The position numbers and the translations under genes are program-made. A model generated the notes under the pieces. It searched no databases, was not told the origin of the DNA, and saw nothing but the letters and a program-made list of their open reading frames with translations. A stretch of 64,000 bases of DNA from Raillietiella orientalis (Eukaryota), in assembly GCA_036172245.1 (NCBI GenBank), contig JAYWIR010000002.1:1302001-1366000 (forward strand). Reading direction: 5' to 3'. Shown one piece after another: positions 26,801 through 64,000 of this stretch (its first letter is position 1; each line of letters begins with the position of its first letter).

Positions 26801-29800
26801 CTGGGACAGGCCGAGCGAACGAACGAAATAATAAGATGGTGTGCACAAAGTTTCTTTAGGTGCAAGAGCATTCGCACGAGCGAATGGGCTTTTTGCACCC
26901 TCCAGCGCCCGCACAAGTGGGGCCTGTATCGACGCGGGGCAACTTGATGACTTTTCGCGCGCCGCTCTTCCGCTAGGATCGCTAGTTTCCACGCCAGCAA
27001 GTTGGGCACAGAATCGAATTCTGTCAGGAAAAGAAAGAAAAAATAAAATAAAATGCCCTTTTCGGAAAAGTCTGAAAAGACAGTCGATGGCCAGGGCCTC
27101 AGCTAAAAATAACAAGTACACAAGCAGTGTGTTGGCTAAATGAGTTTTCCTTCAGTGCCGCCACATCACTAATGAGACCGCTCCGTACGTGGAATGATAA
27201 CAGACAGACAGGAAAGAAGGAAGATGAAGATGCCATGTTTTGTGTGACCTCCCAAAGGGAGGTTTGATGTCAGGTGTTGTGTGTCTAAAGGTATGGCTGG
27301 CCTCTCGTAACACATTCAACCACCTCTGCCACCACCTTCCCCTCCCCCCTCCCCACAGCTCCCCTTCCCAGACTCGCAGCGATAGAATTTTTGAGGGGTT
27401 CACCAAAGGATTCTCACTTATGGAACCTGCATGTCGAGTGACCCTTAATCTAATCAGGTTGTCGAAAACCCTGCCTCGAGAAACAAGAGCCGTGGCTGTG
27501 AGAAAGAAAACCGAAACAACTCCGATGCGGCTCTCTGATGAGCCTTTGCTGGTAGGAACTGTGGACGAAAGGAAAGGGAAAATGGATAAGGCGAGTTCCA
27601 CCTCGACGGCTGCTGGCAGAAAGGCGACACTGGAAGCGAAGGCTTGGCATTTCACAAGCGCGCACTGTTGCGTCCGGCGTTTCCGGGAGCGAAACCCACT
27701 CTCTGTTTTTCTAAGATCAGGCTGGAATTGCGCAGGACTAGAAGGCCCCGATCGAATTCTTCTTGCATGCGCTGGGCGAGCGGGGACGGAGGAAACTTAC
27801 CTTCACCACTTCGACCACGAACGCGTCCGGGACCAGAGCCCCTTTCTTCAGGTAATGCGAGCAGTGTCTTCCCAGTAGAGTTTTCCGGCGGCACTCTCTT
27901 CGGATGGTGGTGCCGCAGTGCACTGGAAAGTTCGTGTGCTCAGTACCGGACACACGTCGTCGTAGCAGCGGCTCGCGTCGGATTTTCGTCTGCGGAGGCA
28001 CGCATCTTCCCGCGCTTGTCTGCGTACTGCACGGATGGCAAGATGTGGGAAACTTTTCCAGGAGCAAACACAGGAACACGGGACGGCAGAAGAAAGAGGA
28101 CCCTATTTTTGCTGTTTTTTGGTTTCTTTCTTTTCTTCAATAAGGCACTCGAAAAAGAAATTCCGAAAGCATAAAGAACTCGCCACTCTGGAACCTCAAA
28201 GGCGAATCCTCTCTCGATCCCGCGTGCCTCCCTCTTTTCGAAATTTCCGGAAAGAAGCCGTTTTCGCTTCTGCTGGAATAACCTCCCGCACTTCCGGAAG
28301 GACGAGCCTTCGGGAAGGAGTCCAAGAGAATATTCGGAAAGTGGCTGCTGCAAGGACAGAATCTCTCGTGAGATGCACTTGCTTGCCCACTGTCTTCCGT
28401 GGGCATCCTTAGTTACCGTTGCCACCGGAGGCGTCTCGACGGAAAGAGAGTTTTCTCAGCTCGCGTCTCCTTTGACCCTTCCGGCAGCAGGCGAGTTTTG
28501 CTCGAGGAACAGTTCCTTCGAGGGACACTCTGGATGCGGGGACGTTCCAACGTACGCATCCTTCGCCGCAAGCAGCGAATCAAGGCGGTAGGTGAGCACA
28601 GCAGAGTAAGAAGCCGATGCATGTAGCCGCGCTCGTCTCGTCTCACGCAATGGCTTTCTCTATGCACCGCACTGATCTTCCGCTGGATGGGAAGAGCGGA
28701 CACAAAGCACAGATAGGGAAAGGGGGTAACAGGATGTGTAGACCGCAGATGTCTGCGAAGGATTGTCGAAAACCAAGCACAGATGCCATCTCACAGCGGA
28801 CGAGCCTTGAAAGACAGCTATAAAGAAAGAAGAATCCTTCTTTCTTTAGAGCATTGGCTGTGATGAGATCCTCGAGGATTTTTTTTATTTTATTATTATT
28901 ATTTTGAAAAAAACTCACCGTTCGTTTTCCGGTAGTTTTTCTGGAACTCCATCCAACACTGTTTGAGATCTCAAAGTGCCGTAACGAACTTGGAGTCTCG
29001 GCAGCCTGTTAGTCTAGTCTATTTTAGTTTTAAATAGACTCGGAAGCCTATTTAAGACCTTTTGGTCAAGCTGTCTTTGTCCTTCGCGTAGACTGGCAAA
29101 ACTTCCATCCCGGACTCCTTCTCCGTTCCTCCCACTTCAGGAGCCGAATGAAACAATCTTTCATGACTCCCGAGTGGTCTACGCCGAAGCCTCCCGAATT
29201 CTTTCAAAGAAATGCAGCAAAATCTTTGGAGAGGAAACGAGCAATTTGGAAAACGCGGGAAGATATTAGGTGAACGGGACCAAGGAGGCGAACACGCCTT
29301 GCTCATGGGACCACCGGGTCTTTAAGTGAAGTCCTCCTAGAGGAAGGAAATCTTTCCCCGGGAACGGCACTCTGATCCTAGTCAAAAGGCCGAGAAGCGA
29401 ATAAATGGCTACTGTTGTTAGGTAACCCCAAAGAGTCTCCTGCTTCCCAAGAGTTCCTTCGGTGCATTTTCTTCCCTAGTCCTGGATATCATTTCTTCCT
29501 GTCCAAGCGTAGCAACGTGGTGGCTGCCCTGCTGAGGCGTCATGAACCTGTGTTGTCACCAGAGAGGAGTGTGGCCGAGCCGCACGGATTGGAATCCTTT
29601 CGGCGCTCCTCGCAAGCATCCTGACTTCTCGAGGAATGATTCTGCCCATCGATAAAGCCCACAATCTGTGCAATCCATGCTGTTCGGATACGGGAGTGCT
29701 GGAGACGGTCCTCTCGAAACGGAATCGCACTGCGAGAATCCTCACCATCCCAAAGTGATCCCAAGCTTTGTTTGTCTGATCGACTGAATTCCGGTCTCCA

Positions 29801-31338: not shown

Positions 31339-34300
31339 TCACACGCACGCACGCAAGCACAAAGGAAGGAAAAAAAAACACACACAAGATCTGCAGATGG
31401 GATCGAGAGAGCTTGATTTGGAAGTCTTTCTGAATAAATTTTCCGAACGCAGGAATCATTTCAATCCTCGAGCTTCTCGGTTCAAAAGAGAAAAAGGTAA
31501 AAAACAACAACATCGCGGGATGGGGAGGTCTCTAATGTTCCAATCACTAAAAAATTCGGATCCAGATGTTTCTGAAAGGGTCTCGAAAACTTTCTCGGTG
31601 GATCTGTCCTCTCCGTACGATTTTCATGCAAGCCAGGCGTGGCAGACGCAAGATTCGAGTATCTTCCTGCCACTCGTAACGAATGCTCGCGAAGAACGTG
31701 CAGTTTCGTCATGAATCCGTTGCTCGCCGAGCGTGGAAATCATTATATCCGCGCGCGAAGCAATAGCCGAAAGAGATCCGTCTGGAGCGTCGCAAATGAG
31801 GCTGCTCCTGCAAAGCAAGTCTTCCCCGAAAGAACTGTCTCTATGGTTGCGCTAGGGCGGGGTGGTCTACAACACAGAGGACCCGCTACCGGTTGCCGTT
31901 CCTATCCTGTGACGCGAGGATCTTTTTTTTCTTTTTTTTTTTCTCTAGGGACCAAAAGGATGCTGTCGTGATCGTGCGAAGCGATGCCACTCCGAAGGCG
32001 CGAGATCGAAGGAAGTTGATGGTCGAATTCTGAAACGACTCCCTCAGAATGAGATCGCGTAAAGACTCCAGGAGGCTTTCAGATTTTCAGATCTGTTACT
32101 TCTGCAGTGTGCTACACATCTTTGATAAAATCTCTGGTAATCATCGTCTCTTCACCCCTGAATCGCCTCCGTCCGTTCTTCTTTTTTTGGAATTGCTACT
32201 TCCAGATTCAGCATCTTCAGCATCTTTCCGGGATCGACTGGGACACAGTCGAAGGGTTTTGTCTCCCCATGGTGATTGTTGTCTATGTTGTGGTGGCATG
32301 GTTCTTTCGGTGAGGTGGAGCTGAGGCATCTCATCTAAGGCAAGCCTCCCTACCAAAGATTGTTGTCTGGGTATCGCCCTCAAACCTCTACCAGAGAGGT
32401 CGAAGAACGCTTTTATTGGTCGCCAGCATGGATCCGTTTTCGCTGGTGCCCGATTTTTTCGTTCCAAATCAGATTCGGCTTCAGGCTTCTTCTTCGCAGC
32501 ATCGTCTCTCTTCATCAACTCCCCTTCTCCCTCCTTGACTCTCTCTCCCTCCCTCCTTTGCCGTTCCCCCTTCAGCACGAATGTTCTTCCTTCACCCCTA
32601 CCTCCCTTTCCTGAATCTCTCTCTCTCTCTCTCTTTTTCTTGCAAACAACCTCCGACGAAATTTCCATTATCCCGTTCATCACGGCAGGAGAGCACGTGA
32701 TTTTGAATGCGCGGCGATCTTCCTGTTCCCATAGGAATCAGCCTCCCTTAACACCTCCTTGATGGTCTGCAATGGCTCCTTGCCTGCTGCACCAAAAAAT
32801 CTCTTCCGTGCCCGCTCTCCGCGCGCACACGATCGTAATCCATTCTTCCGTGGCTGCTGTCGCAATGGAGTTTTCCCATAGTGGTAATTTCCCCGTTGCC
32901 AACGCCGTCGCGGTTTCCCCACCCAGCCCAGCGCATGGGATGTTCCTCGCTGTCGCAAGAGGAAGATTCGAAACGTCCCGTTCCCTCGAGGGAGGGAGCT
33001 CGATTCCACCTTGAGTCCCGAGTCGCGGGCCAGACACTGCATTTTCCTCTCGGTGCGGGGTTCTCGCGCTCGCCGATGCGTCTCCCTTTCGGGAATGCGT
33101 GACGCGCCACTTGCCCGATGGACTCTTTTTTCTTCGACGGCTGGCGGACCGAAACCATCCAGCATCCAAATCCTAGTCTCAGTCCCGAGCGCACGGTCTC
33201 CCTCCTCAAGAACTACCTTCGTGCTTCTGCAAGTATGCAGAGCTTCTCAAATCTTCATCGAATTTTTCGCCTCCCGCCCCCCACCGTTTGCGTGAACGTG
33301 GAACTCTAAAGTTTTTCGGCCTCAGCACTTGAACCTTTCCGCAGACTCCACTGCATTTTCCATCGGCACTTCCATGGATCGACCAAAAGATACGTGCTAA
33401 AAGTACGTATCTTCCCCTGCCGTTTGTCCCGCCACCCCTCCTCCTCGATCACAAGCTTCCCGTGCTTCTGGGATTTAAGGAGCTCATAAGGGTATGCTGT
33501 GTTCCGTAAAAGCAGGGTCGAGGGAGTTTTCTGATGACGCAAGCGCGCACGACCCTATGGAGTCGCAGTGAACCACCCGCATAATTCCGAGTTTCTTTTC
33601 CCGCTCGGCCGAACCAGCCTGCCCTCTGCCGGCCCAACTCCACGCGGGCGAAGCGAAGGCGTAGCTGAAACAGGTTGCTCGCCAGAGGAGGGATAGCAAG
33701 GACTCCCCCTCGTTACCGAACGCTCCTGGCCCGAACCGAAATCCCAGAGGCCTTTGGCTGGTCGTTGCGGGGAAAGAGAGGCACACCGGACCGAAGAGTT
33801 GGCTTTCCGGAGAAGCATGCGCCGGATTGCACAAGAGACATTCCAGCATAACCCTTGGATGACATGAAAGAACACTGGAATGACGAAGCTCTCATATTGT
33901 AACTTTTAACATTAGCAATATGGTCTACTCTTTTTCAATCTGAGTGCAATTGCCTCTTCCCAAATGTCACCATTGTGTAATAACTTTTCTCTATTATACA
34001 TCAGCTCCTCTCTTGTTTCTGTCGCAAACTCAAAATTAGGGCCCTCAACAATTACATTGAGAAAGATCTTAGGTGATCACGTTCCTCAAAAAGGCTCCTT
34101 GGTTGCACCAGATAGACTGAGGTTTGACTTTAGTCACAACACCCAAGTTACCCAGGATCAGCTATTTTTGATAGAAGATATGATGAACTCTCTAAGTAGA
34201 GAAAATCTTTCCACGTCTACAAAAATTCAGAGCATGGATCAGGCAATAGATGAAGGAGCTATGGCGTCGTTTGGCGAAAAATACGGCGACCAAGTAAGAG

Positions 34301-37300
34301 TGGTAAGTACTGGAGGTTCAAAAGAGTTGTGTGGCGGCACTCATGTGGAGCAGGACACGGAATTCTGAAGACGGGTTGGCAAATCTGTGGTTATTACTGA
34401 CGTGTCCTTGAAAGAAACTGTCGTGGCATATCGATCGCCTCTGCTCCGCTAGGAGGCTTCTCCTTTCCCTCCCCCCTTACCCCCTCCTCGTTTGGATGCC
34501 AAGACGCCTGCGAAAGCGGGAAAGAAACGGTCAATTCTCAAGCAAATTCGCCGAAAATTCAAAGGTGAACGAAACGGGAGAGGAAGAGACCTCTGTAGCG
34601 AAGCACAGGGTTTCTCCTCGAAGGCGAAACCGATGAAAGGCATTTGTTCGTCTCGGATCCTGTGATAGACCATGACCAGTTGCGGTGCGGTTGTGAAGTA
34701 AACAGGAAGCACGGAATCGCGATCCCTCTTCCGGGCTCGGTGCCTCATTTACGATTCGCAGAATCCTAAATTGCAGATTTAAAATCAAGGGTTGGTTCCG
34801 TTTGACGGAAGAGGCCGTCCAGCAGGTATTTGGTGCGCTTTCTAGACATCGGACGCGAGTTCGTGACAAGAAGGAAGCGCACATGTTGGTGGCGACTTTG
34901 CAATCAGTTGCACCAGCGCAATATTTCACGACATGACTGACCAAACTGATGTCGAGAAAGAAATGCAAGACGCAGACTTAAAGCAGATGACTTCTCCTCC
35001 CTGCCCCCACCCACCCCCTTTTTTTTTTCTTCTTTGTGACTGAAACTTCGGAACTCTTTGGAAGTCTGGGATAACCGTGCTCGTACATCAAGGAAAGATG
35101 AAGTACTTGGTGATTTATTATTTCTCAGAGAGAAAAAAAAAAAAACGGGAACGAAAATCGATCAGAGCTTAAAAATCCTGATTGGGAAGAGGCTGGGGAT
35201 CCAGTTCAGGAAGGGAGGAGGGAGGATTTCCAGAGGGATTCCTTTTGCATCTAGAGGATTCGAGAAGACTTCGTTGTGGTGGTTCTTTTCAGCAGCCTTT
35301 TCAGACTCTGACAGAACTTATCGAAAAGTCTTGCGCTTTTCATGGAAAAGACTCTTCTTCCCATGGTTGGGGAAGAAAGTTTCCCTGCACAAAGCAAACG
35401 TGCGATGATGTCCATGCAAATGAGAGTCCGGCACTGTTCCCTTTCTTCTTTTGATGGTTCCGTTTGTAGAATGAAATATCCTTTCGATGGCTCACGCGGT
35501 CCATTAATTGTAAGAGAGAGAGAGAGAGCCGAAATCGTAAATTTTTCGATAAAAACCCTCCGTGTGGTAATAAAATGAACTCTTATCAGACATTTTTCTC
35601 TCTCCTCCGGTGCATATTCAATTCTCCAAGGATCCTCTCCATCAACTATTGCATTATGCCATAGAGGGATCCAACCCGATCCCGAGAACAAATCTCAGTT
35701 TTGAAAAGCTTGGATAAATTTGCTACATTAATCCCTCTTTTTCCTAAGAGCGTTTGTTGTCAGAAAAGGGAAAGATTTTTAGAGTTTTCATTTCTTTTTT
35801 TACGTTTGCTCTATAGACTGTCAGTTGAATCAGGATCTCCAATCTGTGGACTGAGCTAAGATAGAATGCATATATACATATATGTGTGTGTGTGTTCCCT
35901 GTAAATGCAAACAAGGAGGGATAATGCATTGCCTCGGACTGCATCCGTTCGCTAACACAGCTCACGAAAGATTCCGTTTCCGATGTCCCCAAATGATTCC
36001 CCCTTCTGTCGCAATCTCTGGCGACCACCATGCGCGCTCATGGATCTGTTTCAGATCTCGAAATGTAATGTTAAGCGCCATGCCTATACTGTCGACCGAC
36101 TGCTCGCCGAGCATGCTGCTCTTCGTCCCCGCACCTGCTAACTGCGGATCTCCGAAATCACTTGTCGGATCGCTGTTTACTCTGCGCGCCCTGGAGGGAA
36201 AATGAGGATGGCTTACCTTCCACAAGGTCGAACTCTGTAGCCAGACGAGCCGCGTGTTTTCGAAGCACCGAGTCGCAGATCCCTAGTAGCACAACCCTCA
36301 GCATCACTCGGCGATGGTAACGAGGGAATTGGCATATGAAGGCCATGGATTCGAAGTACATTTCTTTGAAGGGAAGGTTTCCAGGAAGAATCTAAAACAA
36401 CGGAGCTGCGGTCACCACTTCATTAGACGCAGCTTCAACGCAGCTCCTTTTCCGGACGAATGGTTTCGAAAGTCGCAGTGAAAGAAGCATGTTGTTTCAT
36501 GCAGCAGTCCTCCGCAAAGATTAGTATGCGGGCGCTGATAGCGTGCACACCACACCTTGCCATGAGGGCCTTCAGTAGGAAACAGACCACAACGAACAGA
36601 CTGTAGATGGCGACAAAAGAGAACTGATCCGTTGCTTGACCAAAGCACTTTCGAAGCTGGCTTGACGCTAGTTTCACGGGCGTCGTAGAAGATGCGAAAG
36701 CTGAACCTCCTCCAAAGCAAGGGTGGTGGTGGAATGAGAGAGAGGGAAGGGGGGGGGGGGGGGAACGTTGAAAAGTGGACGTAGAAAAGAAGAAGGAAAG
36801 AAGAGGATGTGTGTCACTTGGATCTTGGATAGATGGATTCCGCCAAGAACCACAGCATGCGATACAGGAGGAAAACTTGAAGAAAGTTGTTTCGCTTCGA
36901 AGAAGGCTGTTTGCGACGAAAATTGCAACGATCTCAAACGGCTGCTTTCGGCACGGTACGCTCCATGAATGAATGTGCAGAAATAGGGAAGCGTTCAGCG
37001 GGTTTTTAAAGTGCAGACAGCAACCTCCTGCTCGATGGTGGCGGCTCCACTATAATATCAGCCGATGACGTCCCCCTTCAGATCGAGCATGGCAAGGTGA
37101 CGCATTTCTGTTTCTTTGTGCAAAAGAGCTGGACTCGGAAACAGGCAGGAAATAAAATTTGCTTGTAAAATTCTCAGGAATGCTCTGCGTGCCGACATGC
37201 TGGACGGTGTTTCGCATTCGCTCAACATTCTCTCGGCAGTTTCTTTTCCTTGGAGAACTCCCAGGTCACCATTGGCGAAGGAAGAAGCAAGCTGAGCACA

Positions 37301-40300: not shown

Positions 40301-42130
40301 CTGGGTTTGCGAGCTCCGAGACAGAGACGCTAAATTGGGAGGGGGAATTTTGTATGCAGCAGTAGGTGACGTGACGCACAGAACGCATTCTGATAGGCAG
40401 TACAGACGTAATGTATAATATATTCTCTGTCCCAGAATATCCCATCCATTCTCAAAAACCAAAACGGCATAGGTCACTTGAAAGCTTGGGAACGAGTTCC
40501 GGAGAGTGTGACCCAACGACCTTCAGTCCTTTCGTTAACGAGGAGAGAGCCTTTGGTAATCTGGTCGCTACGTTCCTGTCTGCATACACCTTCCAGTGTA
40601 TCCCCGAATCAATGAATCTCACGTCTGAGAAACAAACACTGCTTTTTCAGGTCCTGGATTCCATCTACACTTCCCGGTGGAATCACATCCCATCTCCACG
40701 TGGCACGGCGTTCGCACGGACCAATACAACAGCATCAGCAGGAGAGCCTGATCATTGAGAGCATCCGGTAGTCTGCAAAGTGCGGAAATTGGATCCTTCA
40801 GGTCCCGATGCTCGAAAAACCTGGACCTACGTTGGGTAGCGAATTTTTCGAGCACCAGTGTTAGTGGTGGTGCTTGACAGGGAAACTCGAGGGGTAAGAG
40901 AAATTGGCTTCCCAGATGCAACGTTGGAAGCCTAGTGAAACGCATGGAATTTGTGAGCAGAAAAATTCTCGAAAGAGTGGAAGCACGGTCGCCGAATCTG
41001 AGAAGACAGTTAGGGAGCAAGACAAGTCCCATCTATCCAGGGGCCAGCAACCTCGCCAGTTTCCTTTGAAGTGCAGAAGGAGACACAGCCGATGGCCGAG
41101 AACCATACAGCATATCACTTGTCTCTTCCGCGACCTTGGATTTTCATTTCTAGCGCACAGGGAAGAGAAACAAACACTCCATCGCAGGGGGGAAAAACTG
41201 ACCCCTAGGTGACATCTATTGCTGTTGCCGCAACGAGCGAAACCCAAAAAAGAGAGAAAAATGTCCAATCACCAAAGCGTGCAGAGAGTTCCAAACACTT
41301 CCGTTGGAAAGCTGCACTCACTGGAAGATCCCCTGCCTAATTTTGTTACTCAAAGTCCTACTGAAAGGAACAAGCAGAGGAAGCGAGAAGATGCTGTTCT
41401 CTGAATTCCCGTTTTGTGTTTCGGAATGGTTTTCCCGAAACGGATTCTTCACAAGATGGGTAAGAAAAAGAAGAAGAAAAGAAAACACACACACACACAC
41501 ATCTGTATATAAAATTATTACAAACCACCCTGGACGTAGGAATGAGAATTATCAACGACCGCTACCTGTGGCGTATTCGGGCTTCCAACTCCACATAGGC
41601 TCTAAACTTATGACTTTGTCGGGAAAAACATCGCTGTTTTGTAGGGAATCCACATCATCTCTGGATTTCGGGAAGCCTGAAGAGTTGTTTGACGTACCGT
41701 TAGGATCAGCGTCATAAGGTAGGTGCCGAAACGATGGACGATACCGACCGTGAACTAACCATCCCTGAGAAGTGCAGTCCTGTTGATTAACTCTTTCCAA
41801 AGTCAGTTTTCCCCAGGGAATTGAGGTCATTTCGTTTTTTCGTATCTTCGAGAGGGACAAATAAGGTAAGATTGTCAGAACGAAGGTCGTAAACCTAACT
41901 GCTTGCTGGAATTCTCGATGTGCACCCTGGATCACGGATTCTGGCGTCAAGCAGACAGCCTTCAAGCTTTGACTAAGAACATTTGCAAGCCTAGCTCCAG
42001 CAGTCAACCACGAAGGATACAAAAGAAAGACTTTAACAGCTTTATGGTTTCCTTCATCTTTGGTTAAGTGCTCCAAGATGAACCCCAGAATATTCTTTGG
42101 CTGATGGATAATCAGCTCTTGCAAAAGTCT
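17837..42130 (-). CDS. AK8: Adenylate kinase 8-like protein (N-terminal docking helices plus two AK domains, both P-loops degenerate), 5'-partial. Exons (minus): 42130-41900, 41845-41749, 41676-41566, 38641-38493, 36391-36217, 27922-27801, 23120-23011, 18232-18079, 18025-17837
   Basis: Nine exons with GT..AG boundaries and matching phases give one 1338-nt frame (445 aa + stop) colinear with AK8 as I recall it. Landmarks: [81 protein letters not shown]...[59 protein letters not shown]. The first coding exon (~25-30 aa expected) was not identified. An optional 48-nt in-frame intron (17899-17852) does not change the stop. Confidence 0.82.
19195..19320 (+). repeat. Dispersed ~125-bp repeat, copy 2 (in AK8-like intron)
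   Basis: Same-orientation copy of 13526-13649. Confidence 0.9.
31286..31337. repeat. Compound microsatellite (CA)20(TA)6
   Basis: Directly visible. Confidence 0.95.
33836..33884. repeat. Degenerate Wolbachia palindromic element (WPE)-like relic
   Basis: agacattccagcataacccttggatgacatgaaagaacactggaatgac resembles the ATTCCAGCGTCACGCGCTGGAATGAC / CACTGGAATGAC repeats of Wolbachia intergenic DNA (from memory). It sits just downstream of the nuoI stop. Confidence 0.6.
33912..34052 (-). pseudogene. nuoI: 3' fragment of alphaproteobacterial NADH-quinone oxidoreductase subunit I
   Basis: Manual translation (below the ORF-track cutoff): [46 protein letters not shown]. This matches the conserved NuoI C-terminus ([33 protein letters not shown]). 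The 4Fe-4S cluster-binding part is missing. Confidence 0.9.
34057..34352 (+). pseudogene. alaS: Internal fragment of bacterial alanyl-tRNA synthetase (editing-domain region)
   Basis: [27 protein letters not shown]...[17 protein letters not shown]...[11 protein letters not shown] are canonical bacterial AlaRS motifs. The fragment is truncated at both ends and has non-conservative changes at conserved sites ([16 protein letters not shown]). Confidence 0.93.
39945..39986. repeat. Perfect 15-bp inverted repeat with 12-nt loop
   Basis: tccgattcgcaaagt-cctcctgcatga-actttgcgaatcgga. Confidence 0.9.
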
Positions 42131-45021
42131 CTGGAAACGAAATCGAAGATAGCATGTTACATGTGAATTTTGGATCATTCTGTATTCATCAATCTGTGCT
42201 CTAACGTTAGTAGAAAGTTTTTATTTACTGGATTCCGTTTGGAATTTCAGAATTTTCAAAGGAAGAGAGACGCCATTTGAGAACATTTCCACTGAGCACC
42301 TCTCGATTGCGCATTCTCGCAGCAAGTTTCCTGTCACAGAGTGTTGCCGAGTGTTTCTCTTCACTCCCAGTCAGCGTAACCATTACTTATTCCTGTTGAG
42401 GGAATCACTCGTGCAATCCCTCCGAATCAATCAGTAACTGACTGCCAGGCCCCAAAGGCCACCGGGGGATCTTGCGACGAGCATTCATTCTATGCCCAGA
42501 TGCTGGAAGTTGAAAACTGCCCCTGCCAACCCGTGTCGGAAAAGATGGGTTTGCCATCCCGGAAGGCAGAGATGCGTGGGCAGGAGGGGGGTTTACGGGT
42601 CGAAACGGAAGCCGAACAAAAAGAACGATTCCGGGAAAACTGCGCTTCGAATGGCCTCGCAGCGCTGTTTCCCTGAATATAGCACGCGGGCATAATTTAT
42701 TAAAAAGAATCCCAAGATTCCTTCGATATTTCAAGCCGAAATTCGTGAATCGGTTTTCTTCATATCCGAATGAAGAATGCGGGATTAGTTAGCAGAAAAA
42801 ACCTCCTTCACGTAATATAGCTGTCACATTCATCAGTCATGCCGTTTTCAAACATCGAGTGCTATTTTCGTAGTAGGCCTCCTTGATATGTTCAGATGTG
42901 TAAGCTCATCTACCCACCCACTGCCCTTTTGCTGTGGATTTTTTGGCGCGCTAAATAATAAAATGGTCTCGGAATTTGCGAAATCCCCTTCAACTCATCA
43001 GAATCCACGTAATCAGAACCAACTAATTTGCTGAGGAAAACACGCCCAGCTTCTGGACCTTGTGCACAATAAGGACAAAAGGAGCTTCGGAGATGGCACG
43101 TTTCCAAAGTAAGGAGTGAATTCGTGGAACAAATCGATCATAAGGAGAACTGCCCTTGTCTGAAGCGAGACATTTTGCTTCGGACCATGGATGGCTAGTG
43201 GTTTCCAGAGCGAAACAACATCATCAACTTGCAATAAGCATGCAGTTTTTTTTTTTTTCTTCATCTCTCTCCCTCTCTCTCTCTCTCTTACGAATAACAG
43301 CAGGAAGCTGTTTGACCAAAGTACAGTAATTACTCCAAAAAGGAAAGTTTGAAAAATGATATTCAAGCTGCACAAAGGAGGAGCAGAAATTCAAGAAATA
43401 ATGGAAGACTCGGAAATCTCCCAAAGACAAAGGAATATTTCTAATCGTATTTTTGGCCTCTTGATGGGCCGTTGTCCATTAAGCTAAGCGCCACCGGGAA
43501 GCGCCATCCACACACGTGGCGTACAACAGCAAACCAACGAAGAGAGGAGGTCCGCTGAAAGGACATTGCATCGATCTAGAAAGAAGACCACAGCACAATA
43601 ATTGACATGAACGAATGATTGTGTGCCAAAGAATCGCAAGCTCCCATCTACTAGATCAACCAATCGGATGGTAAAGATGCTAGAGGAAATGAAAAAAAAA
43701 AATCATCATCGGCTCCACTGCGACTGGTTGAAAACTACATTTCCTGACTTTCAGCTCCGTAAATGCACAATGCGTGTGGTCGAAAGAAGATAAAGCACGG
43801 CCAGAAGGCAGACCTCTAGTAAAACAACGTTGGTTAAACAAATGGGAAAACAAACAGTGAATGTTGGCATTGAAGATTTGAATTAGAATGTCGAGCTGCA
43901 GTGGATGTCGTGAAGATTGAGTACGAAATTTGTGGAGGTGCCAGCGAAATAATGATTCTCCCTTAAATGATAAGAGGGAAGACGGAAATTGATTTTATTT
44001 CCTGCTTGTGTTCGAAAACTCTGCAGGGCGAACGAAAGCGAGTTTCACGAAGGATTTCCACCTTGCCGGCAATCATAGAACACTGGCAATTTTCCGCACC
44101 TTCTTGGATCAAAATTCGTTGACTTTTTAAACCTCGCAGCAGATCAGCAGCCGTCCTGTGAGGTGGCTGCCTCCTTCGCTATGACTGTCATTTTAAATAA
44201 CGACATTATTCCCTCTTTGGAAGTCCATCGCTTGCAGCCCTCCTAAACTGTGGAGAGGCGAAAGTCTTTCCGAGGTGTAGGAATCTGAAAACATCGTTTG
44301 AATAAAAAATGTGCGTGGCTGGTTATCTTTCGATGTTTATGTATTTTGAACATTCTCCACATTCCCTACTTGCCTACTCTCCCTGATCTGATGATCTTTC
44401 ACTGAATAGATGAACGTATCGAATTTCCGAAAAACCCAGGCTTTATTGATTCGCTACACATTTCCACTTCGGATTCCGTTTTCAACGTGCATTTTCCGGC
44501 CTTCGTTCTCATCCGTCCTCCCTACGTCCCCGTCGTCATGGGCGCTTCAATTAACGATAATCCATACTTCACACCAAGCAAGCATATCGGCTCGAAACAT
44601 CACTGAAAGGAATTCTTGTCTGAAAATAATGACACCAGCAGAATTCAGAGGATACACTTGTGGGTTTACTGACAATTTCAGTGGAGTTCTCCGTTGCTCA
44701 TGCCGAAGGATGTGATTCTATCCTATGCATAGCAACTTGTTTTCACAAGAGCTGTATTAGAGAACCTTGCAAATGTGAGAAATGAGGAATGGATACATCG
44801 GTGAATACAGCTCTTTATGTGCAACCTCAGCTGCTGCCACGCAACTGCCAATGTTTTCTTTTCTTCTTTTCCGTTTTTATTTGTTTCCTGTCAACGAAGA
44901 GCTTTTCTGATCCTCATTATCATAATTCTTACTGCAAATCCAACTCGCAGAGAGCACATGTCTTGAACATACGCAAGAAATTGTTTGCTCGCAAAAAAAA
45001 AAAAACACATTGAACGATAGC

Positions 45022-57250: not shown

Positions 57251-60236
57251 CCGCTGAAGAATGCAGCGTCATCCATATCTGTCGATTCCTCCGCTGTGCC
57301 GCTTCCACACCGCGTGGAAGGAGATGGGCGCAGCTGATTGAAGCCACGTCTTGTCGTGTGTCGGCTGTGTTTGTTCTGTCCAGACTGCTGCCTCTGCGTT
57401 GCCATAAGGACGTCGCAAATCGCGCGATGAACGCGCATACACGAAGGAAAGGGGCCACCAGGCTGACGTGGAAAACCCGGATACATTCACCTCACAGATA
57501 CGGCAGTTCAGACCCTCCAGGATTCAGGAATTAGAGAGGCCAGAAAGATTTCTACTGTTTGCAGCCATTTATCTAGGGGAATGCCCGAATCCTCAGTGTA
57601 GCTCTAAAAGCTCCGAAAGTTGGCGCTTGCTGTCCACTTGGAAAATAAAAATAAAAAAAATGAGGGTGGGGAACTTCACAGAGTGGTAGTTTCCATGGAC
57701 ATCCTCGTCGATCGTTCGAACGAGTGTCATGTATCGCGATCCTTATTCGAGCAGAATTCTTGTCCACCCACGCCTTCGAGGACGAAATTCTAGAGCCGCG
57801 TCGAAGAACCCTTGGTGATCATGTGACCGGTTCTGGATTTGCAGGGGACTTCTGCGCCTACCCATCTCCCCACAAATACCCGCCTCGTTCGATCCGCGTT
57901 GCTTCCCCTTCAGAGCGAGTCTCCTTTCATGCTGCTTCCTCAAATTCCGAGTGTCTTCCAAGGTTTCCTCCCCTCCCTCCTTCCTCCCCAACTCGGATGG
58001 GCGGCAGCAGGGAATTTCCTCCGCTCAGCTCCTCTTCCAAGAGCGCGGCGACACTCCCCAACACTTTTGGCACGACCGTCATGACAAGGAGACGACTCCC
58101 GCGCCATCCTGCTCAGCTTCCGGATTTCAGAAAGACCTTCGCAGGGCATCCTCTAGACCCTCCGGAGGCCGACAAAAAACTCGAGTTTCGCGCCGAAGGG
58201 CTCTGACATCGAGCGGGCTCCCAAGAGGAACCGGAGGAAGGGCATCCGGCAGCACTTCCGACTCCCGACCACCACGAGCAACCTCCAGCCTCCCCGCTGC
58301 ACCCCGCAAGCGTTTCCAGGGAAAGCGCGACCAGACAGAAGCCAGCTTGCCCTTGGCGATCTTGTGTTCGTGGCGCTCGGCTGCTGCTCTAGGGGAGGGC
58401 GAGCAGAAAGGTCCGAGGAGCTCGGCGTGCACGCCAGCGGCATCATTTTCCTGAGCCAGCAGCTTCTTCGCCGCATCGCTCAGCAGGAGGAGGAAAGGTG
58501 CGCGCGTCCTGAAAACTGCGGCTACTCCCCCCCCTTCCAGCGCCGGGATCCCGCGCGCGTAGCTTTCCCCTAAATCCTCTCATCATCCTTGAGCTCGCGG
58601 CGATGATGACGGCGACGACGACGCTTGGCGAGATGACCCCTGCCGCAGGGCGCTTGCGGGAGAGGAGGTCCCCTGGAGAGAGCCACTTTGGAAAGCATTT
58701 TCAGAGAAAAGATCTTAAGGACAGACGGGAGCCAGAGTAAAAACTGGGGGCAGTGAGGGAGGGGAGAGGGGGACGTGCCGATGAAGATAAAGGGAACTTG
58801 GCGCCGCCGTCGGATCCGCTACGCTCCGAGGCGGGGCCTCAGACGCAGCACGGCCGGCTGGCCGAGTCGCCAGCTGCATTGCCATGGGACGGCCGCACAA
58901 GCACGTTCGGAAGTGCGCAAGGACAAGGAGGGAACGTGGAAAGGAGGAAAGGGGACAGGACAGGAGCCCTCCGCTCTTCTCAGGACCGGGTGGTGGCCTC
59001 AGACTCCTTGTGCTCGCATGCCACGTCCATCGCGAGGAACTTCAGACGTTGCGAGAACGTCGCTCGCCTCTTGCTGCAAGGACAAACAGAGGCGGACTAG
59101 CAGACAAGGACCCTCCTCCAATGGGTACTGCTACCTCTTCCGGAGGGAAGACGCCTCCGGGTAGCGAAAAGGGGGAAAAGGCGGTGGACGCCCTCATCCT
59201 GCCTCGTCTTCCTCCTGCTTCGATCGTTTCTCGTCGACCTCCGTTCCGGTCGTAGCAGCAGGGAGCGCGGAGGTTGCCTCGTGCGCGGTCTCCGGCGGAG
59301 CGGGGAGGAGGAGGCAGGAGCCGCGTGCACGCTCTTGTGGTCACGGTTGCTGCCAACATCGGCAGTGCTCCTCTCGAAGACTGGACTCCTGCTGGGGGTC
59401 CAGAGGCAGGGGGGACGAGCTATGGCGGCGGCAGAGAGTTCCTCTTGTAGAGGTGGCGAGCGAGCTCTCATCAGAACTCCTCCGATTGTCGGGGAGATCA
59501 CTCGCAGAAAAGGCTTGCCGCGGAAACCATGGTTACGGAAGGGAGGACGGCTCGAAAGGAAAAAAGAAACGGAAAAACAATAGAAAATTTTCAAGAGGAT
59601 TATCGACCGACTGCCGGCTTTTCTCCGTGGGAAGCCCGCGGAGCTGCCGTGAGCACGAGAGAACTTGGAACTACCGTCCTGGAAAGAGCACGGTCCGGAA
59701 GATGTTCCCGCGGGAGCAGAGCCCGTGAAGAGGCCGAAATTGAAAGGGAGGGCGCCCCTGGAGCTTCTCTCAGCGTCCCGTTCCTTTCGGGAAGATCCGC
59801 GGGCCATGAGCCTCCGGAACTGAGGTACAGGAAGACGCCCGGAGCGACACGCGTTCCCTGGCAACGGCGCGGAGGCTCGCGCGCCGTTGCCAGGAAAGAA
59901 CTCTCGCGCAACGAGGCTCCCGCTGCAGCCTGACGGCCGACAGGCTCGCTGGTCTCCGTGAGCCAACGCAACCTCTGCGAGCGCGCGTGGGATCCCCTGA
60001 AGGGAACGGGCGCCGCCGCCGCAAGCGGCGGTGCGATTGCAGTGCAAGCTGAAGGGTGCTTGCCCAACTCCTTCGCATCCTTTCTCCCTCCCTCCCTCCC
60101 TCATGACGCGCGAACTCCAGAACGACGAACCGGCCGTGCGTTGGATTCGGGGACATCTCACACTTCTTCGCTCCCCCTCCCCCCCTCTCGCTCTCCTGGC
60201 GCTCCCGAAAACTTGTTCCTTCTTTCAGATCCCAGA

Positions 60237-62396
60237 ATGGATTACGTTCCCTACTTCGGGGACCTCATCCCCTTTTTTAGCACGTTCAGTTTCTACCTCG
60301 GCGGTCCGAATCAAGCGAACCTGCTGTTCACGACCGCGCTGCTCGTCGGATCGCTGTACTACTGCATGGCATACGCTCTTCAGGAGAAGCTGGTTGCCTC
60401 CGAGCGGCTGGTCATGAACAAGCAGGCCCTAGCATACCCCTACGACATAGACTGCGTCGTTTCCCGCATGCACGGCCTAGCCATGGACAATAACTTCTTC
60501 ACCTACCTCTACAACTCTTGCAAGATCATTCCCCAGATCATTCTGGTGAGGGGTCAGTCGGAAGTGACCCAGGGGGGGACGAGACCCGCTCTGGGGATCA
60601 TCAACGGGGACACCATGAGCTGGACCACGTACTCCGAGTGCCAGAACGAGATCCAGCAGATCGCCTCGGGTATGCGTGCACAGAAGCTCGTCTCGAAGGT
60701 GTCCAGGAAGGTCAGACCCGAGTGCGTTGGAGTGTGCGCTCCCCGGGGACCCGAACACACCATCATAGAGCACTCCATCATCCTCCTAGGAGGCGTGTAC
60801 GTCCCGGTTCACAACCACTACGGCAACGACACCATGATGGACATCATCCGGAGGACACGCATGCGGACGCTGTTCATTGGCGACGTAGAGAAGGGGAAGG
60901 TCATTATCGAGAGGCGCCCGCTGACCCTGAAGCACTTGGTTGCCTTCGAGTCCGTGGGCATGGTGCTGAAGACCAAGGCCAACCTCAAGGGGCTCAGCTA
61001 CCACACGCTGTCCTCCCTGAAGAGGAAGGGTGGTCGCAAGCTGCTCGACCTGCACAAACAGATGTCATTGCTGCTGCCCAACAGGGTCGTGGCCTGCTTC
61101 TTCACCGTTAACCACAGCGAAAAGTCCCGAGGCGTTCTGTTGACTCACGAGAACCTGCTCTCCGCAGCCACTGCGGTCGCTGTGCACCTAGACCAGCTGT
61201 TTCTAAGCCCTGACGACGTCTACCTGGCCAACGTGGGCAGGCATCATGCGTATGAGATGCTCTGGAACCTCTGCGTGCTGATGCAGGGAGCAAAGCTGGT
61301 GTACGGCACAGGAGACATCCAGAGCGACCTCAGAGTGGCCCGCCCGTCGTTCCTGGTTACCCCCCCCTGGGTTGTGAACGAGGTGTACGACAACTTCGTC
61401 GATACCTACAACAGCATGGGGGCGTGCACTCGCATGTCCACGGACTGCGGCTTCACCAAGAAACTGTCCAGCATGGAGCGCAGTTCCATGATGCGCGGGA
61501 CCTTCATGGACATGAAGTTAGGCCGCCAGGTGCAGAAGGCATTCGGCGGCCGGGTCAGAATCGTGATCGTCAGCGGTGGACCGATCTTCAGGGACGTTGT
61601 CGTCTTCATGAGGGCGTGCCTGAACTGCTTCGTCCTGCAGAGCTACGGAGCTGCCGAGACCAGCGGAGTGGCTTGCATGACCGTTCCCGGAGACAACATG
61701 GTGGACCACGTCGGGCCACCCTTGCCGTGCAACCACATCAAGTTGATCCACCCGGAACTCTTCACGTACACGCAAGTCACCCCGCTGGAGCTGCTTCGAC
61801 GAGGGTCCTATGTGGGCGAGATCGGAATCCGCGGGACGAACGTGGCGAAGGAGTACATTGTGTGGAAGGACGACAAAGGGAGGTATAGCAAGGAGGAGAT
61901 GGTCCTGCTCGTGACGGACGGGCAAGACTTCTTCCGCACCAACGACCTCGGGCGCATCCTCAGTAATGGAGCCATACAGCTCGTCGGCAGGAAGAAGATC
62001 AACGAGAAGAACGCTTCAGGAGAGTGGATTTGCCCCGTCCACCTGGAGAAGATTCTCAGGGACCACGTCAAGGTGATCGAAGGCATCCACTTGCACGTGG
62101 ACAGATACCGCTTTTACACCATAGCGTTTGTTAATGCGAAAGAAAGTAACGCTCAGAGTGAACTGGTCTTGAACGAGATCTTGCAGTCCTGCGCTACCTC
62201 AGAGAAAGTCAGAGACCTGAAGAGCTACCAGGTTCCCCAAGCGGTTGTCATCGCTCGTTCCACGATCACAAAGGCAGACCACGCTGCGAGGGACGAAATT
62301 TTAGTGAAGGAACACGAGCACGACTTGGAAGAGACCAAGCAAATGTCCCCGACGGAGAACCAAGTCTTCGGAAGAGCTCTGCAAGACATGTTCTGA
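60237..62396 (+). CDS. Intronless long-chain fatty acyl-CoA synthetase (ACSL)-like protein, 719 aa, with degenerate adenylation motifs
   Basis: Long uninterrupted ORF with strong C/G third-position bias. The first ATG is at 60237 (track ORF starts at an upstream GTG). It has an N-terminal hydrophobic segment and ACSL landmarks: WTTYSE, GVLLTHENL, DDVYL, FGGRVRIVIVSGGPI, SYGAAETSG, HVGPPLPCNHIKL, GEIGIRGTNVAKEY, FRTNDLG...GAIQLVGRKK, GEWICPVHLE, LKSYQ. Confidence 0.92.
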   Translation: MDYVPYFGDLIPFFSTFSFYLGGPNQANLLFTTALLVGSLYYCMAYALQEKLVASERLVMNKQALAYPYDIDCVVSRMHGLAMDNNFFTYLYNSCKIIPQIILVRGQSEVTQGGTRPALGIINGDTMSWTTYSECQNEIQQIASGMRAQKLVSKVSRKVRPECVGVCAPRGPEHTIIEHSIILLGGVYVPVHNHYGNDTMMDIIRRTRMRTLFIGDVEKGKVIIERRPLTLKHLVAFESVGMVLKTKANLKGLSYHTLSSLKRKGGRKLLDLHKQMSLLLPNRVVACFFTVNHSEKSRGVLLTHENLLSAATAVAVHLDQLFLSPDDVYLANVGRHHAYEMLWNLCVLMQGAKLVYGTGDIQSDLRVARPSFLVTPPWVVNEVYDNFVDTYNSMGACTRMSTDCGFTKKLSSMERSSMMRGTFMDMKLGRQVQKAFGGRVRIVIVSGGPIFRDVVVFMRACLNCFVLQSYGAAETSGVACMTVPGDNMVDHVGPPLPCNHIKLIHPELFTYTQVTPLELLRRGSYVGEIGIRGTNVAKEYIVWKDDKGRYSKEEMVLLVTDGQDFFRTNDLGRILSNGAIQLVGRKKINEKNASGEWICPVHLEKILRDHVKVIEGIHLHVDRYRFYTIAFVNAKESNAQSELVLNEILQSCATSEKVRDLKSYQVPQAVVIARSTITKADHAARDEILVKEHEHDLEETKQMSPTENQVFGRALQDMF

Positions 62397-62479: not shown

Positions 62480-62485
62480 AATAAA
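62480..62485 (+). terminator. Probable polyadenylation signal of the ACSL-like gene
   Basis: AATAAA 84 nt after the stop codon, followed by a GT-rich stretch (ctttgtgtgg). Confidence 0.5.
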
Positions 62486-64000
62486 CGCTTTGTGTGGAAC
62501 ATTGAGAGCACGAGTTGGTGATGGAGGGTTTCTCGAAGAGCAGTGGGGACTTATTCCTTGAAGAGTCATCCCCCTGAATGAGCAAAGCCGACGTGGAATA
62601 AATGGACGTCTGTGCATTCGTGATTTCGATTCTTTGGAGCCAGCGGAGGCACTTCGACCAACAGAAAACGGTCAATTTGACCACGAGGCTTCTGAAGCAT
62701 TACTTGCATTTCTTCGTTTTCATGAGCAACGGAAGAGTACTCTTCTTGCTCTCTTTCCACGCCGTCGAAAGAGAAATCAATGAATCTCCAGTATTCCCGA
62801 CGCCTAAGTTAGGGAAATGAATGAGCTGCGCCCATGTCTTCTCCAATATTTTCCACATCGTATGTGCAAGCAGTACAAGGCTAAGGGAGACTCCAGGATG
62901 AAGAAAAAAAAGCCTCGTACCACGAGGTTCTCTCCCTTCGGGCGAGTCTTCTCCATGAAGCTCCCTGTGGCCTCTCTCGGACCGCAGCTTGAGATGGGCC
63001 CAGCTGAAGATGGAGTTTCGACGGTCCACCACCGAACAAGAAGATTTCGAACGGTCGCTTGCGAGCAAACCCTTGCGACACACCGATTGTTCCCACCAAA
63101 ATCCAGAATCCATCTTTTTCGGTTGCTGCAAATCCCACCTTTGGCCGCCAAACATATTGCTGACGGGAGGCGAGGAGGGCGGGGTGGAGATTTTTCCCCA
63201 GTTGCCTATGCGCAGGCCATCCAAGGCTTTCTCTCGTGGGAGGGTGCGTTTTCCGAGCAGTCGGCTTGTTTTTGCTGTCCAACGAAGGCTTACTCTTGTC
63301 ATTCACACCTCCTTCACAAACGAGGAGGTAGGCTGCATCGGTCCACGAGGCGACGCCAAGGGCACACGAACCCTTCGCACCACCACGAAATGGCGCCCGT
63401 ACGGCTCGTCAGCGCGCTTAGCCGTTAAACATGCTTTCTGCTGTTTTAGGGGAAGGACCGGGATGCTGTGGAGATCTGCTTTACTCGTGTGGTGCATCTG
63501 TTGCCGGAGGACGAAGCGGCTTTCTGTTATGGGAAAATCCAACAGGAGCTCCTCGTCTCTGTGCTTTCAAAATCAAAAAAAAATAAGGTGCTTCTATGGA
63601 CTTCCGGGAGAACCCACCTTTATGACTACAATTGTCCATGGGGGTGCCAAGGTGAAAAGCATCGCGAAATCGCTGATGCTTTTAAGAGGATTAACCGTTC
63701 AACGAATCCGATGTCTAATAGCGGTGCTGCGCTTTTATGTGACCATGTGACATCATCCGCATCGTGGTGTTCTGGAATTCGAGGTTTGGCGATTCCTGGA
63801 TCGGGAATCCAAGGTACACACAGGTAGATAGATAGAGCATGTTCACAGACATACATTTATATATACATGAACAGATACATTGTGTGTCTAGACGCGGACA
63901 AACATCCTTAATCCATCAACTACTATCCCAACTTTTACAAGAAAAACTTCTCACAGGGAAGGTTTATTCTAATTCCCTTCTCTCCATTGTTGTCTTCTTG

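What the first reader, a model, noticed from the sequence alone, without database searches (positions are those of the whole stretch)
60237..62396. Intronless ACSL-like gene with a destroyed ATP/AMP-binding loop: candidate retrogene pseudoenzyme
Seen: a 2.16-kb CDS without introns, while the other genes here have exons of ~70-300 nt. The adenylation P-loop reads CFFTVNHSEKSRG (from 61095) instead of (Y/F)TSGTTGxPKG. YLPLAH becomes YLANVGRHH, GYGxTE becomes SYGAAE, TGDIG becomes TNDLG, and the C-terminal TPTxKxxR catalytic-lysine motif is not recognisable. The frame, membrane anchor and codon bias remain intact. Established: these motifs are required for acyl-adenylate formation in ANL-superfamily enzymes. 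Inference: a retroposed ACSL duplicate kept for a non-catalytic role (lipid binding, scaffold, or regulator of active ACSL), plausibly germline-expressed.
Basis: partly seen in the sequence, partly recalled or inferred. Interest (0 to 1): 0.7.

Follow-up and report, generated by a model that had tools for sequence, protein, structure and literature searches.

The report
Intronless dead fatty-acid ligase gene family
An arthropod genome keeps four intact, intron-free copies of a fatty-acid-activating enzyme gene that have all lost the loop needed to use ATP, so they probably act as non-enzymatic lipid-binding proteins, a role not yet shown by experiment.

Summary
Confirmed and extended. The 719-codon ORF (60237-62396) is a full-length ACSL1/5/6-type protein with a confident ANL-fold model, but its P-loop Ser, Gly, Pro and Lys and the C-terminal catalytic Lys are gone. 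Three more intronless paralogues in this genome (27-34% identical) have also lost the loop. The four form one clade (100/100), sister (95/94) to the only intron-containing ACSL1/5/6 gene found, which has at least 11 exons. All 7 other ACSL genes found keep the loop. The four share a new Arg and Trp in the gate region and keep the TGD Asp, YG, hinge Arg and GE. Open frames at this divergence exclude neutral decay. Best reading: a retroposed, then duplicated, non-catalytic membrane lipid-binding family. Weak X-box evidence (3 of 4 genes) points to ciliated or sperm cells. Expression, activity and orthologues are untested.

The parts
60237..62396 (+). Uninterrupted 719-codon CDS of an ACSL1/5/6-derived protein (P0001)
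   Evidence: AlphaFold2 model pLDDT 84.3, pTM 0.87 with a 115-sequence alignment; ANL fold by Foldseek
60324..60380 (+). Candidate N-terminal membrane anchor, residues 30-48
   Evidence: KD19 1.54; helix 27-54 at low pLDDT; the paralogues score 2.46, 1.97 and 1.52
61101..61133 (+). Degenerate P-loop FTVNHSEKSRG (residues 289-299)
   Evidence: S, G, T, P, K are present in 122, 121, 113, 118, 120 of 122 relatives and in 0 of 4 clade members
61230..61265 (+). Gate region NVGRHH...W: His337 kept; clade-specific Arg335 and Trp343
   Evidence: R and W in 4 of 4 clade members, 0% of 121 canonical rows
61641..61658 (+). SYGAAE: Tyr-Gly and Glu kept, Thr lost; Ser shared with the intron-containing gene
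61938..61952 (+). TNDLG: Asp570 kept (4 of 4 clade members), preceding Gly lost
61986..62024 (+). Hinge region: Arg585, Gly595 and Glu596 kept in 4 of 4, Lys591 in 3 of 4; Asp584 lost in 4 of 4
62241..62291 (+). Shortened C-terminal loop without the TPTxK lysine; terminal Arg685 aligns
62480..62485 (+). AATAAA 84 nt after the stop, followed by GT-rich sequence: candidate poly(A) signal
   Evidence: read from the sequence; use not tested
59853..59898 (.). Two X-box-like (RFX) sites forming the arms of an 18-nt inverted repeat, 339-384 nt upstream of the ATG; candidate promoter element
   Evidence: single copy in the genome
59958..60228 (+). Possible 5' UTR intron (GTGAGC ... pyrimidine tract CAG); inferred only
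   Evidence: read from the sequence; no RNA data

Best explanation
A processed copy of the animal's ACSL1/5/6 gene was inserted long ago, lost the ATP-phosphate loop and the adenylation lysine, gained a new Arg and Trp at the fatty-acid gate, and then duplicated into four genes. Shown: the motif loss, the clade, its sister relation to the intron-containing gene, and long-term retention of the frame and fold. Inferred: the protein cannot form acyl-AMP; it stays membrane-anchored and uses the retained ANL fold to bind or hand on a lipid (fatty acid, acyl-CoA or long-chain base) without ATP, possibly in ciliated or sperm cells. My odds for the steps are: no ligase activity about 0.9, kept by selection about 0.95, retroposed origin about 0.75, lipid-binding role about 0.5, sperm or ciliated cells about 0.5.
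For: Own-genome searches with all four proteins give the same four long intronless ORFs (translations). Mixture-model tree: clade 100/100, with C31 95/94. Three rare residues are shared with C31 (H192, S469, D490; 1-3% of 121 relatives). P-loop kept in 7 of 7 other ACSL genes and 0 of 4 here. Of 60 columns at least 90% conserved, the four keep 32-38; canonical rows keep a median of 58, minimum 46. Conservation among the four follows family conservation (rho 0.33, 570 columns). Neutral simulation: 0 of 200 frames open at 70% identity or less. Yeast Faa1 S271A (P-loop Ser) keeps 11% ligase activity but normal long-chain-base uptake, while D538A (TGD Asp) loses both (PMC4853782); all four lose that Ser and keep that Asp. 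FadD13 K487A loses about 95% of activity (PMC2793005). X-box-like sites lie within 500 nt of the ATG in 3 of 4 genes, at -195 and -186 in the two C25 genes whose DNA does not otherwise align.
Against: No assay, no expression data and no orthologue from another species. The structure model leans on an alignment of active enzymes and I could not inspect its pocket. The window protein alone falls in an unresolved group with C31 and three other animal ACSLs (quick tree); FastTree did not join the clade to C31; branches are long. Plain BLAST scores to C31 (181 bits) are no higher than to two ACSL1-type proteins from other organisms (185). X-box enrichment is weak (P 0.02-0.13 for four consensus forms, 0 of 4 for the strictest, uncorrected; none in C43), and the source paper says a single X-box is not predictive (PMC2375033). 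In yeast Fat1 the Asp mutant kept some import, so the Ser/Asp pattern is not a clean rule. The anchor of the window protein is marginal. C31 itself deviates (His to Phe, Lys to Arg).
Confidence: 0.5

Rival explanations
1. Purely structural protein: abundant, ligand-free building blocks of a sperm or membrane structure, like the Drosophila S-LAPs.
For: S-LAPs lost catalytic residues before the family expanded, include a retrogene and tandem pairs, and build sperm paracrystalline material (PMC3078892, PMC6388916). Same history here; weak X-box hint.
Against: Ligand-site residues (D570, R585, YG, GE) and two new gate residues are invariant at 27-34% identity. The N-termini look like membrane anchors and two are acidic, unlike matrix-targeting peptides (judged by eye).
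Confidence: 0.2
2. Regulatory subunit: binds the active C31 ACSL in a heterodimer and damps, targets or feeds it.
For: Human ACSL6 isoforms form heterodimers, and a C-terminally tagged inactive subunit suppressed the active one (PMC2868784).
Against: The natural inactive isoform 3 did not inhibit in that study. The four are only 26-28% identical to C31.
Confidence: 0.12
3. New chemistry without ATP, such as acyl transfer from or hydrolysis of acyl-CoA, using the retained hinge residues and the new Arg.
For: The loss is selective: phosphate loop and adenylation Lys gone, hinge Arg, Lys591 (3 of 4), GE and gate His (3 of 4) kept.
Against: No invariant new nucleophile appears among the shared derived residues; Glu474 is kept in only 2 of 4; no precedent came up in my searches.
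Confidence: 0.1
4. Still an acyl-CoA ligase with alternative motifs in a fast-evolving genome.
For: The genome evolves fast (its ACSL3-type gene is 41-46% identical to named arthropod relatives); a Lys (296) and Arg (298) lie in the loop; C31 also deviates.
Against: The four loops share no replacement motif; 7 of 7 other ACSL genes keep the loop; single changes at these sites cut activity by about 90% or more.
Confidence: 0.05
5. Decaying pseudogene, or a horizontally acquired bacterial gene.
For: The genome carries bacterial DNA (alaS-like fragment at 33964-34368); no transcript was seen.
Against: Neutral drift to 30% identity gives about 19 stops. Best hits (15 proteins, where named bacterial-type) reach only 59 bits against 169 for single-domain eukaryotic ACSLs, and the protein does not group with the two bacterial-type sequences tested.
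Confidence: 0.03

Closest known systems
Animal ACSL1/5/6 long-chain acyl-CoA synthetases (EC 6.2.1.3; PF00501; ANL superfamily)
   Same: Length, N-terminal hydrophobic helix, fold, nesting within the animal ACSL1/5/6 group; YG, TGD Asp, hinge Arg and GE kept.
   Different: No P-loop, no C-terminal catalytic Lys, no coding introns, new Arg and Trp at the gate; 22-30% identity to the listed relatives.
Yeast Faa1 S271A separation-of-function mutant (PMC4853782; passages and Discussion read)
   Same: P-loop Ser lost and TGD Asp kept; that mutant is nearly dead as a ligase but still supports long-chain-base uptake.
   Different: An engineered single change in an ACSL3/4-like yeast enzyme (family placement recalled); here the whole loop is rebuilt in a natural, selected clade and no transport has been measured.
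Drosophila sperm leucyl aminopeptidases S-LAP1-8 (PMC3078892, PMC6388916; passages read)
   Same: Lineage-specific expansion after loss of catalytic residues, with a retrogene and tandem pairs, beside an active paralogue.
   Different: Different fold; testis expression and structural role are shown there and untested here; these proteins look membrane-anchored.
DIP2 (FAAL-like ANL domains; PMC12055004, passages read)
   Same: A eukaryotic ANL-fold protein repurposed for lipid regulation.
   Different: DIP2 needs its adenylation activity (D523A and L687A abolish function), so it is not a pseudoenzyme precedent.
Human ACSL6 isoform 3 (PMC2868784; passages and section 14 read)
   Same: A natural inactive ACSL form that can pair with active subunits.
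   Different: A splice form lacking the gate, not a separate gene lacking the P-loop.

Membership tests
ACSL1/5/6 lineage (descent) | PF00501 domain over the curated cut-off and ANL fold | tested here: met
   138.7 bits against cut-off 29.9; pLDDT 84.3; Foldseek top hits are ANL adenylation domains
ACSL1/5/6 lineage (descent) | Groups with animal ACSL1/5/6, not ACSL3/4 or bacterial enzymes | tested here: met
   Inside a 99/98 group of 21 rows, sister to C31 at 95/94; apart from bacterial-type rows; long branches
Active acyl-CoA ligase | P-loop (Y/F)TSG(T/S)TGxPKG | tested here: not met
   FTVNHSEKSRG
Active acyl-CoA ligase | C-terminal adenylation Lys (TPTxK) | tested here: not met
   Loop shortened and Lys absent in the tail alignment; Lys679 lies nearby but is not shared by the paralogues
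Active acyl-CoA ligase | YGxTE, TGD and hinge Arg | tested here: inconclusive
   Y, G, E, D and R kept; T473, G569 and D584 lost
Active acyl-CoA ligase | Acyl-CoA formation in vitro | not testable with these tools
   needs an assay
Pseudoenzyme | Fold and frame kept under selection while catalytic residues are lost | tested here: met
   7 of 7 other ACSL genes keep the loop
Pseudoenzyme | Expressed protein with no measurable activity | not testable with these tools
   no RNA run listed for this stretch
Retrogene | Lacks the introns of an identifiable parent at another locus | tested here: met
   C31 has 9 introns inside the aligned region and a further exon upstream; none in the four ORFs, which lie on three other contigs
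Retrogene | Poly(A) remnant and target-site duplication | tested here: inconclusive
   None evident in the flanks printed; not expected to survive at this age
Retrogene | Parent's introns are ancestral, older than the duplication | not tested
   no gene structures of other animals were available
RFX-regulated ciliary or sperm gene | X-box conserved in sequence and position across species | tested here: inconclusive
   3 of 4 paralogues carry a match; P 0.02-0.13 uncorrected; no cross-species test

The most novel reading that the evidence does not exclude
This is a natural, selected family of ATP-independent lipid carriers made from ACSL: evolution's version of the Faa1 S271A mutant, with a new gate Arg standing in as counter-charge for the lipid head. 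It would show that the disputed transport or binding function of ACSLs can exist, and be selected, without acyl-CoA synthesis.
Probability: 0.2. Interest if true: 0.78.

Novelty: new variant of a known kind. Interest (0 to 1): 0.52.

Why it matters
Whether long-chain acyl-CoA synthetases move or bind lipids apart from activating them is described as a hotly debated question (PMC4853782), studied mostly with engineered mutants. Four natural paralogues that lost ATP use but kept fold, anchor and part of the ligand site give a direct test in faa1 faa4 yeast. I found no report of a natural P-loop-dead ACSL clade in the Creative Commons library (listings and abstract starts only; subscription papers are not covered). 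Dead, retroposed, expanded enzyme families are a known pattern, which limits the surprise.

Tried and rejected
Orthologue search: the word-indexed search with the window protein gave 15 distant hits, 20-28% identical; the four-member profile gave 7 hits at E 1e-20 or better, 22-27%; the full HMMER search of 50% representatives gave 6837 hits, and the best 150 listed look like ordinary ACSLs at 22-35%. The top hit P0021 is a fused pair of active-looking nematode ACSLs. 119 of the other 149 listed hits (600-780 aa) entered the alignment; the 30 dropped were not checked for the clade's Arg and Trp. One of them (P0042, 488 aa) has an odd loop that keeps PKG and was not followed up. A relative's spliced ACSL3-type protein exists in the collection (P0200, 81% including read-through introns) but no close match to the clade came up; this is no evidence on expression. 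Sequencing runs: no RNA holder listed; one DNA run gave three short identical contigs and no variants, so no dN/dS. dN/dS between paralogues was not attempted because they are saturated. The first fold, with 5 sequences, was unusable (pLDDT 40). The 18-row careful tree did not finish; its quick tree is cited. No AU test was run. ESM Atlas returned only ordinary AMP-binding clusters. No 7-mer is shared by all four upstream regions. Pfam scans of 293 stop-free frames (149 of 171 listed for 36-60 kb plus 20 more of them, part of those for 16-36 kb, and 10 kb beyond the window) found no host gene around the ORF; a gene without Pfam hits would be missed. No complex prediction was run, since I claim no binding. 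No supplementary files were read.

Full report
Observation. The window holds one uninterrupted ORF at 60237-62396 (+), 719 codons. It matches Pfam AMP-binding at 138.7 bits. An AlphaFold2 model built on 115 aligned sequences is confident (pLDDT 84.3, pTM 0.87; the first 70 residues are low), and its best structural matches are ANL adenylation domains such as carboxylic acid reductase, MatB and 4-coumarate ligase. That model leans on active relatives, so it shows compatibility with the fold, not the shape of the pocket.

What is lost and what is kept. I aligned 127 rows: the window protein, five other proteins of this genome, the two halves of P0021 and 119 of the other 149 library hits (those of 600-780 aa). 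Among the 122 rows outside the clade and C31, the P-loop Ser, Gly, Pro and Lys occur in 122, 121, 118 and 120 rows and the C-terminal Lys in 118. The window protein has none of them. It does keep His337, Tyr470-Gly471, Glu474, Asp570, Arg585, Lys591 and Gly595-Glu596. Of 60 columns at least 90% conserved it keeps 32; canonical rows keep a median of 58 and never fewer than 46.

It is a family. Searching the genome with the protein found three more long intronless ORFs: C43 (753 aa) and a tandem pair on C25 (746 and 764 aa). Searches with each of these return the same four as the top matches; these counts are lower bounds. They are 27-34% identical to each other. All four lack the P-loop, each with a different replacement. 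All four carry Arg at the Leu of LPLAH and a Trp eight residues on, found in none of 121 canonical rows. Conservation among the four tracks conservation in the family (rho 0.33, p 9e-16, 570 columns).

Origin. The only intron-containing ACSL1/5/6-type gene found lies on C31; ten exons of 87-267 nt with GT-AG ends join into an open frame and one more exon lies upstream. It keeps the P-loop core. In a 32-row mixture-model tree the four form a clade (100/100) that is sister to C31 (95/94) inside an ACSL1/5/6 group whose named members are animals. Three rare residues link the clade to C31. Against this: branches are long, FastTree left the clade near the base, the window protein alone was unresolved among five rows including C31, and BLAST does not favour C31. 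Bacterial origin is not supported. The simplest history is one retroposition, loss of catalysis, then DNA-level duplication; retroposition is inferred from nine missing introns and unlinked positions. The host is an arthropod by the named hits of its ACSL3-type gene (41-46%); I could not place it further.

Selection. Six ACSL3/4-type genes on C60 and C1 and the C31 gene all keep the P-loop (7 of 7), so fast evolution alone does not explain the loss. A neutral simulation without indels left 0 of 200 frames open at 70% identity and gave about 19 stops at 30%. GC3 is 0.80 against 0.63 and 0.50 in the flanks. An AATAAA lies at 62480. These show long retention; they do not show current expression, and no RNA run was listed.

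Mechanism. In yeast Faa1, changing the P-loop Ser leaves 11% ligase activity but normal long-chain-base uptake, while changing the TGD Asp removes both (PMC4853782; passages and Discussion). The four proteins lose that Ser and keep that Asp. With a hydrophobic N-terminal segment (KD 1.5-2.5) and new invariant residues at the fatty-acid gate, I judge an ATP-independent, membrane-bound lipid-binding or carrier role most likely (0.5). The same paper notes that Fat1 D508A kept some import, so the rule is not clean. Rivals are a structural role as in the S-LAPs (PMC3078892, PMC6388916; passages; review passage PMC9114714), a heterodimer regulator (PMC2868784; mixed evidence), new ATP-free chemistry, residual ligase activity, and decay.

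Cell type. An earlier scan note on other genes suggested looking for RFX X-boxes. Matches to published forms (PMC2375033; passages) lie within 500 nt of the ATG in 3 of 4 genes: -384 here, -195 and -186 in the C25 pair, none in C43. Against 608 background tiles the chance is 0.02-0.13 for four forms and the strictest form hits 0 of 4. Here two such sites form the arms of an 18-nt inverted repeat that is single-copy. This is a weak hint for ciliated neurons or sperm, no more. The neighbours are an AK8-like gene on the other strand about 18 kb upstream and SBDS beyond the window end.

Novelty and verdict. By descent it is an ACSL1/5/6; by the defining motifs it is not an active ligase. I found no published natural ACSL clade of this kind in seven library searches (listings and abstract starts), and no earlier scan note by sequence or words. 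Dead, expanded retrogene families are a known pattern, and earlier unchecked notes list several other dead enzymes in this genome. I score it a new variant of a known kind, interest 0.52: solid anatomy, an easy and informative yeast test, but no expression, activity or cross-species data.

Noticed in passing
G000:C31:2170676-2204600 (loci L014, L015, L021, L022, L040): The likely parent gene is itself unusual: P-loop YTSGTMGMAKG, Phe at the gate His and Arg at the adenylation Lys; it keeps 52 of 59 conserved columns. The whole ACSL1/5/6 line may be weakened while ACSL3/4-type genes are expanded.
   Followed up: partly
G000:C60:301477, C60:323351, C1:9943753, C1:2514110, C1:2523311, C1:2541879: At least six ACSL3/4-type genes with intact P-loops and short, sometimes in-frame introns.
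   Followed up: partly
window 59854-59897: 18-nt inverted repeat, 94% complementary, 8-nt gap, each arm an X-box-like site; folds at z = -4.0; single copy in the genome.
   Followed up: partly
   Followed up: partly
window 41555-42220 and 27741-28136, minus strand: Exons of an adenylate kinase 8-like gene, a flagellar-type protein by recall.
   Followed up: partly
L051:5400-6900 (+) and L051:7975-8632 (-): SBDS gene in short exons and an RRM-protein gene just beyond the window end.
   Followed up: no
L050 and L018 (C43); L011:9188-10000 (C25): The C43 paralogue lies just downstream of an STK11IP-like gene on the same strand; a gene with IMS_C and UBZ domains (Y-family polymerase type) lies near the C25 pair.
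   Followed up: no
window 63450-63827: A 125-residue open frame with only a faint glutaminase hit (E 0.023); possibly an exon or fragment, not resolved.
   Followed up: partly
window, whole: The pattern GTTNCYNRGNRAC gives 10 strand matches (8 places) against 1.4 expected from shuffles; the cause, such as repeats or real sites, is unknown.
   Followed up: no
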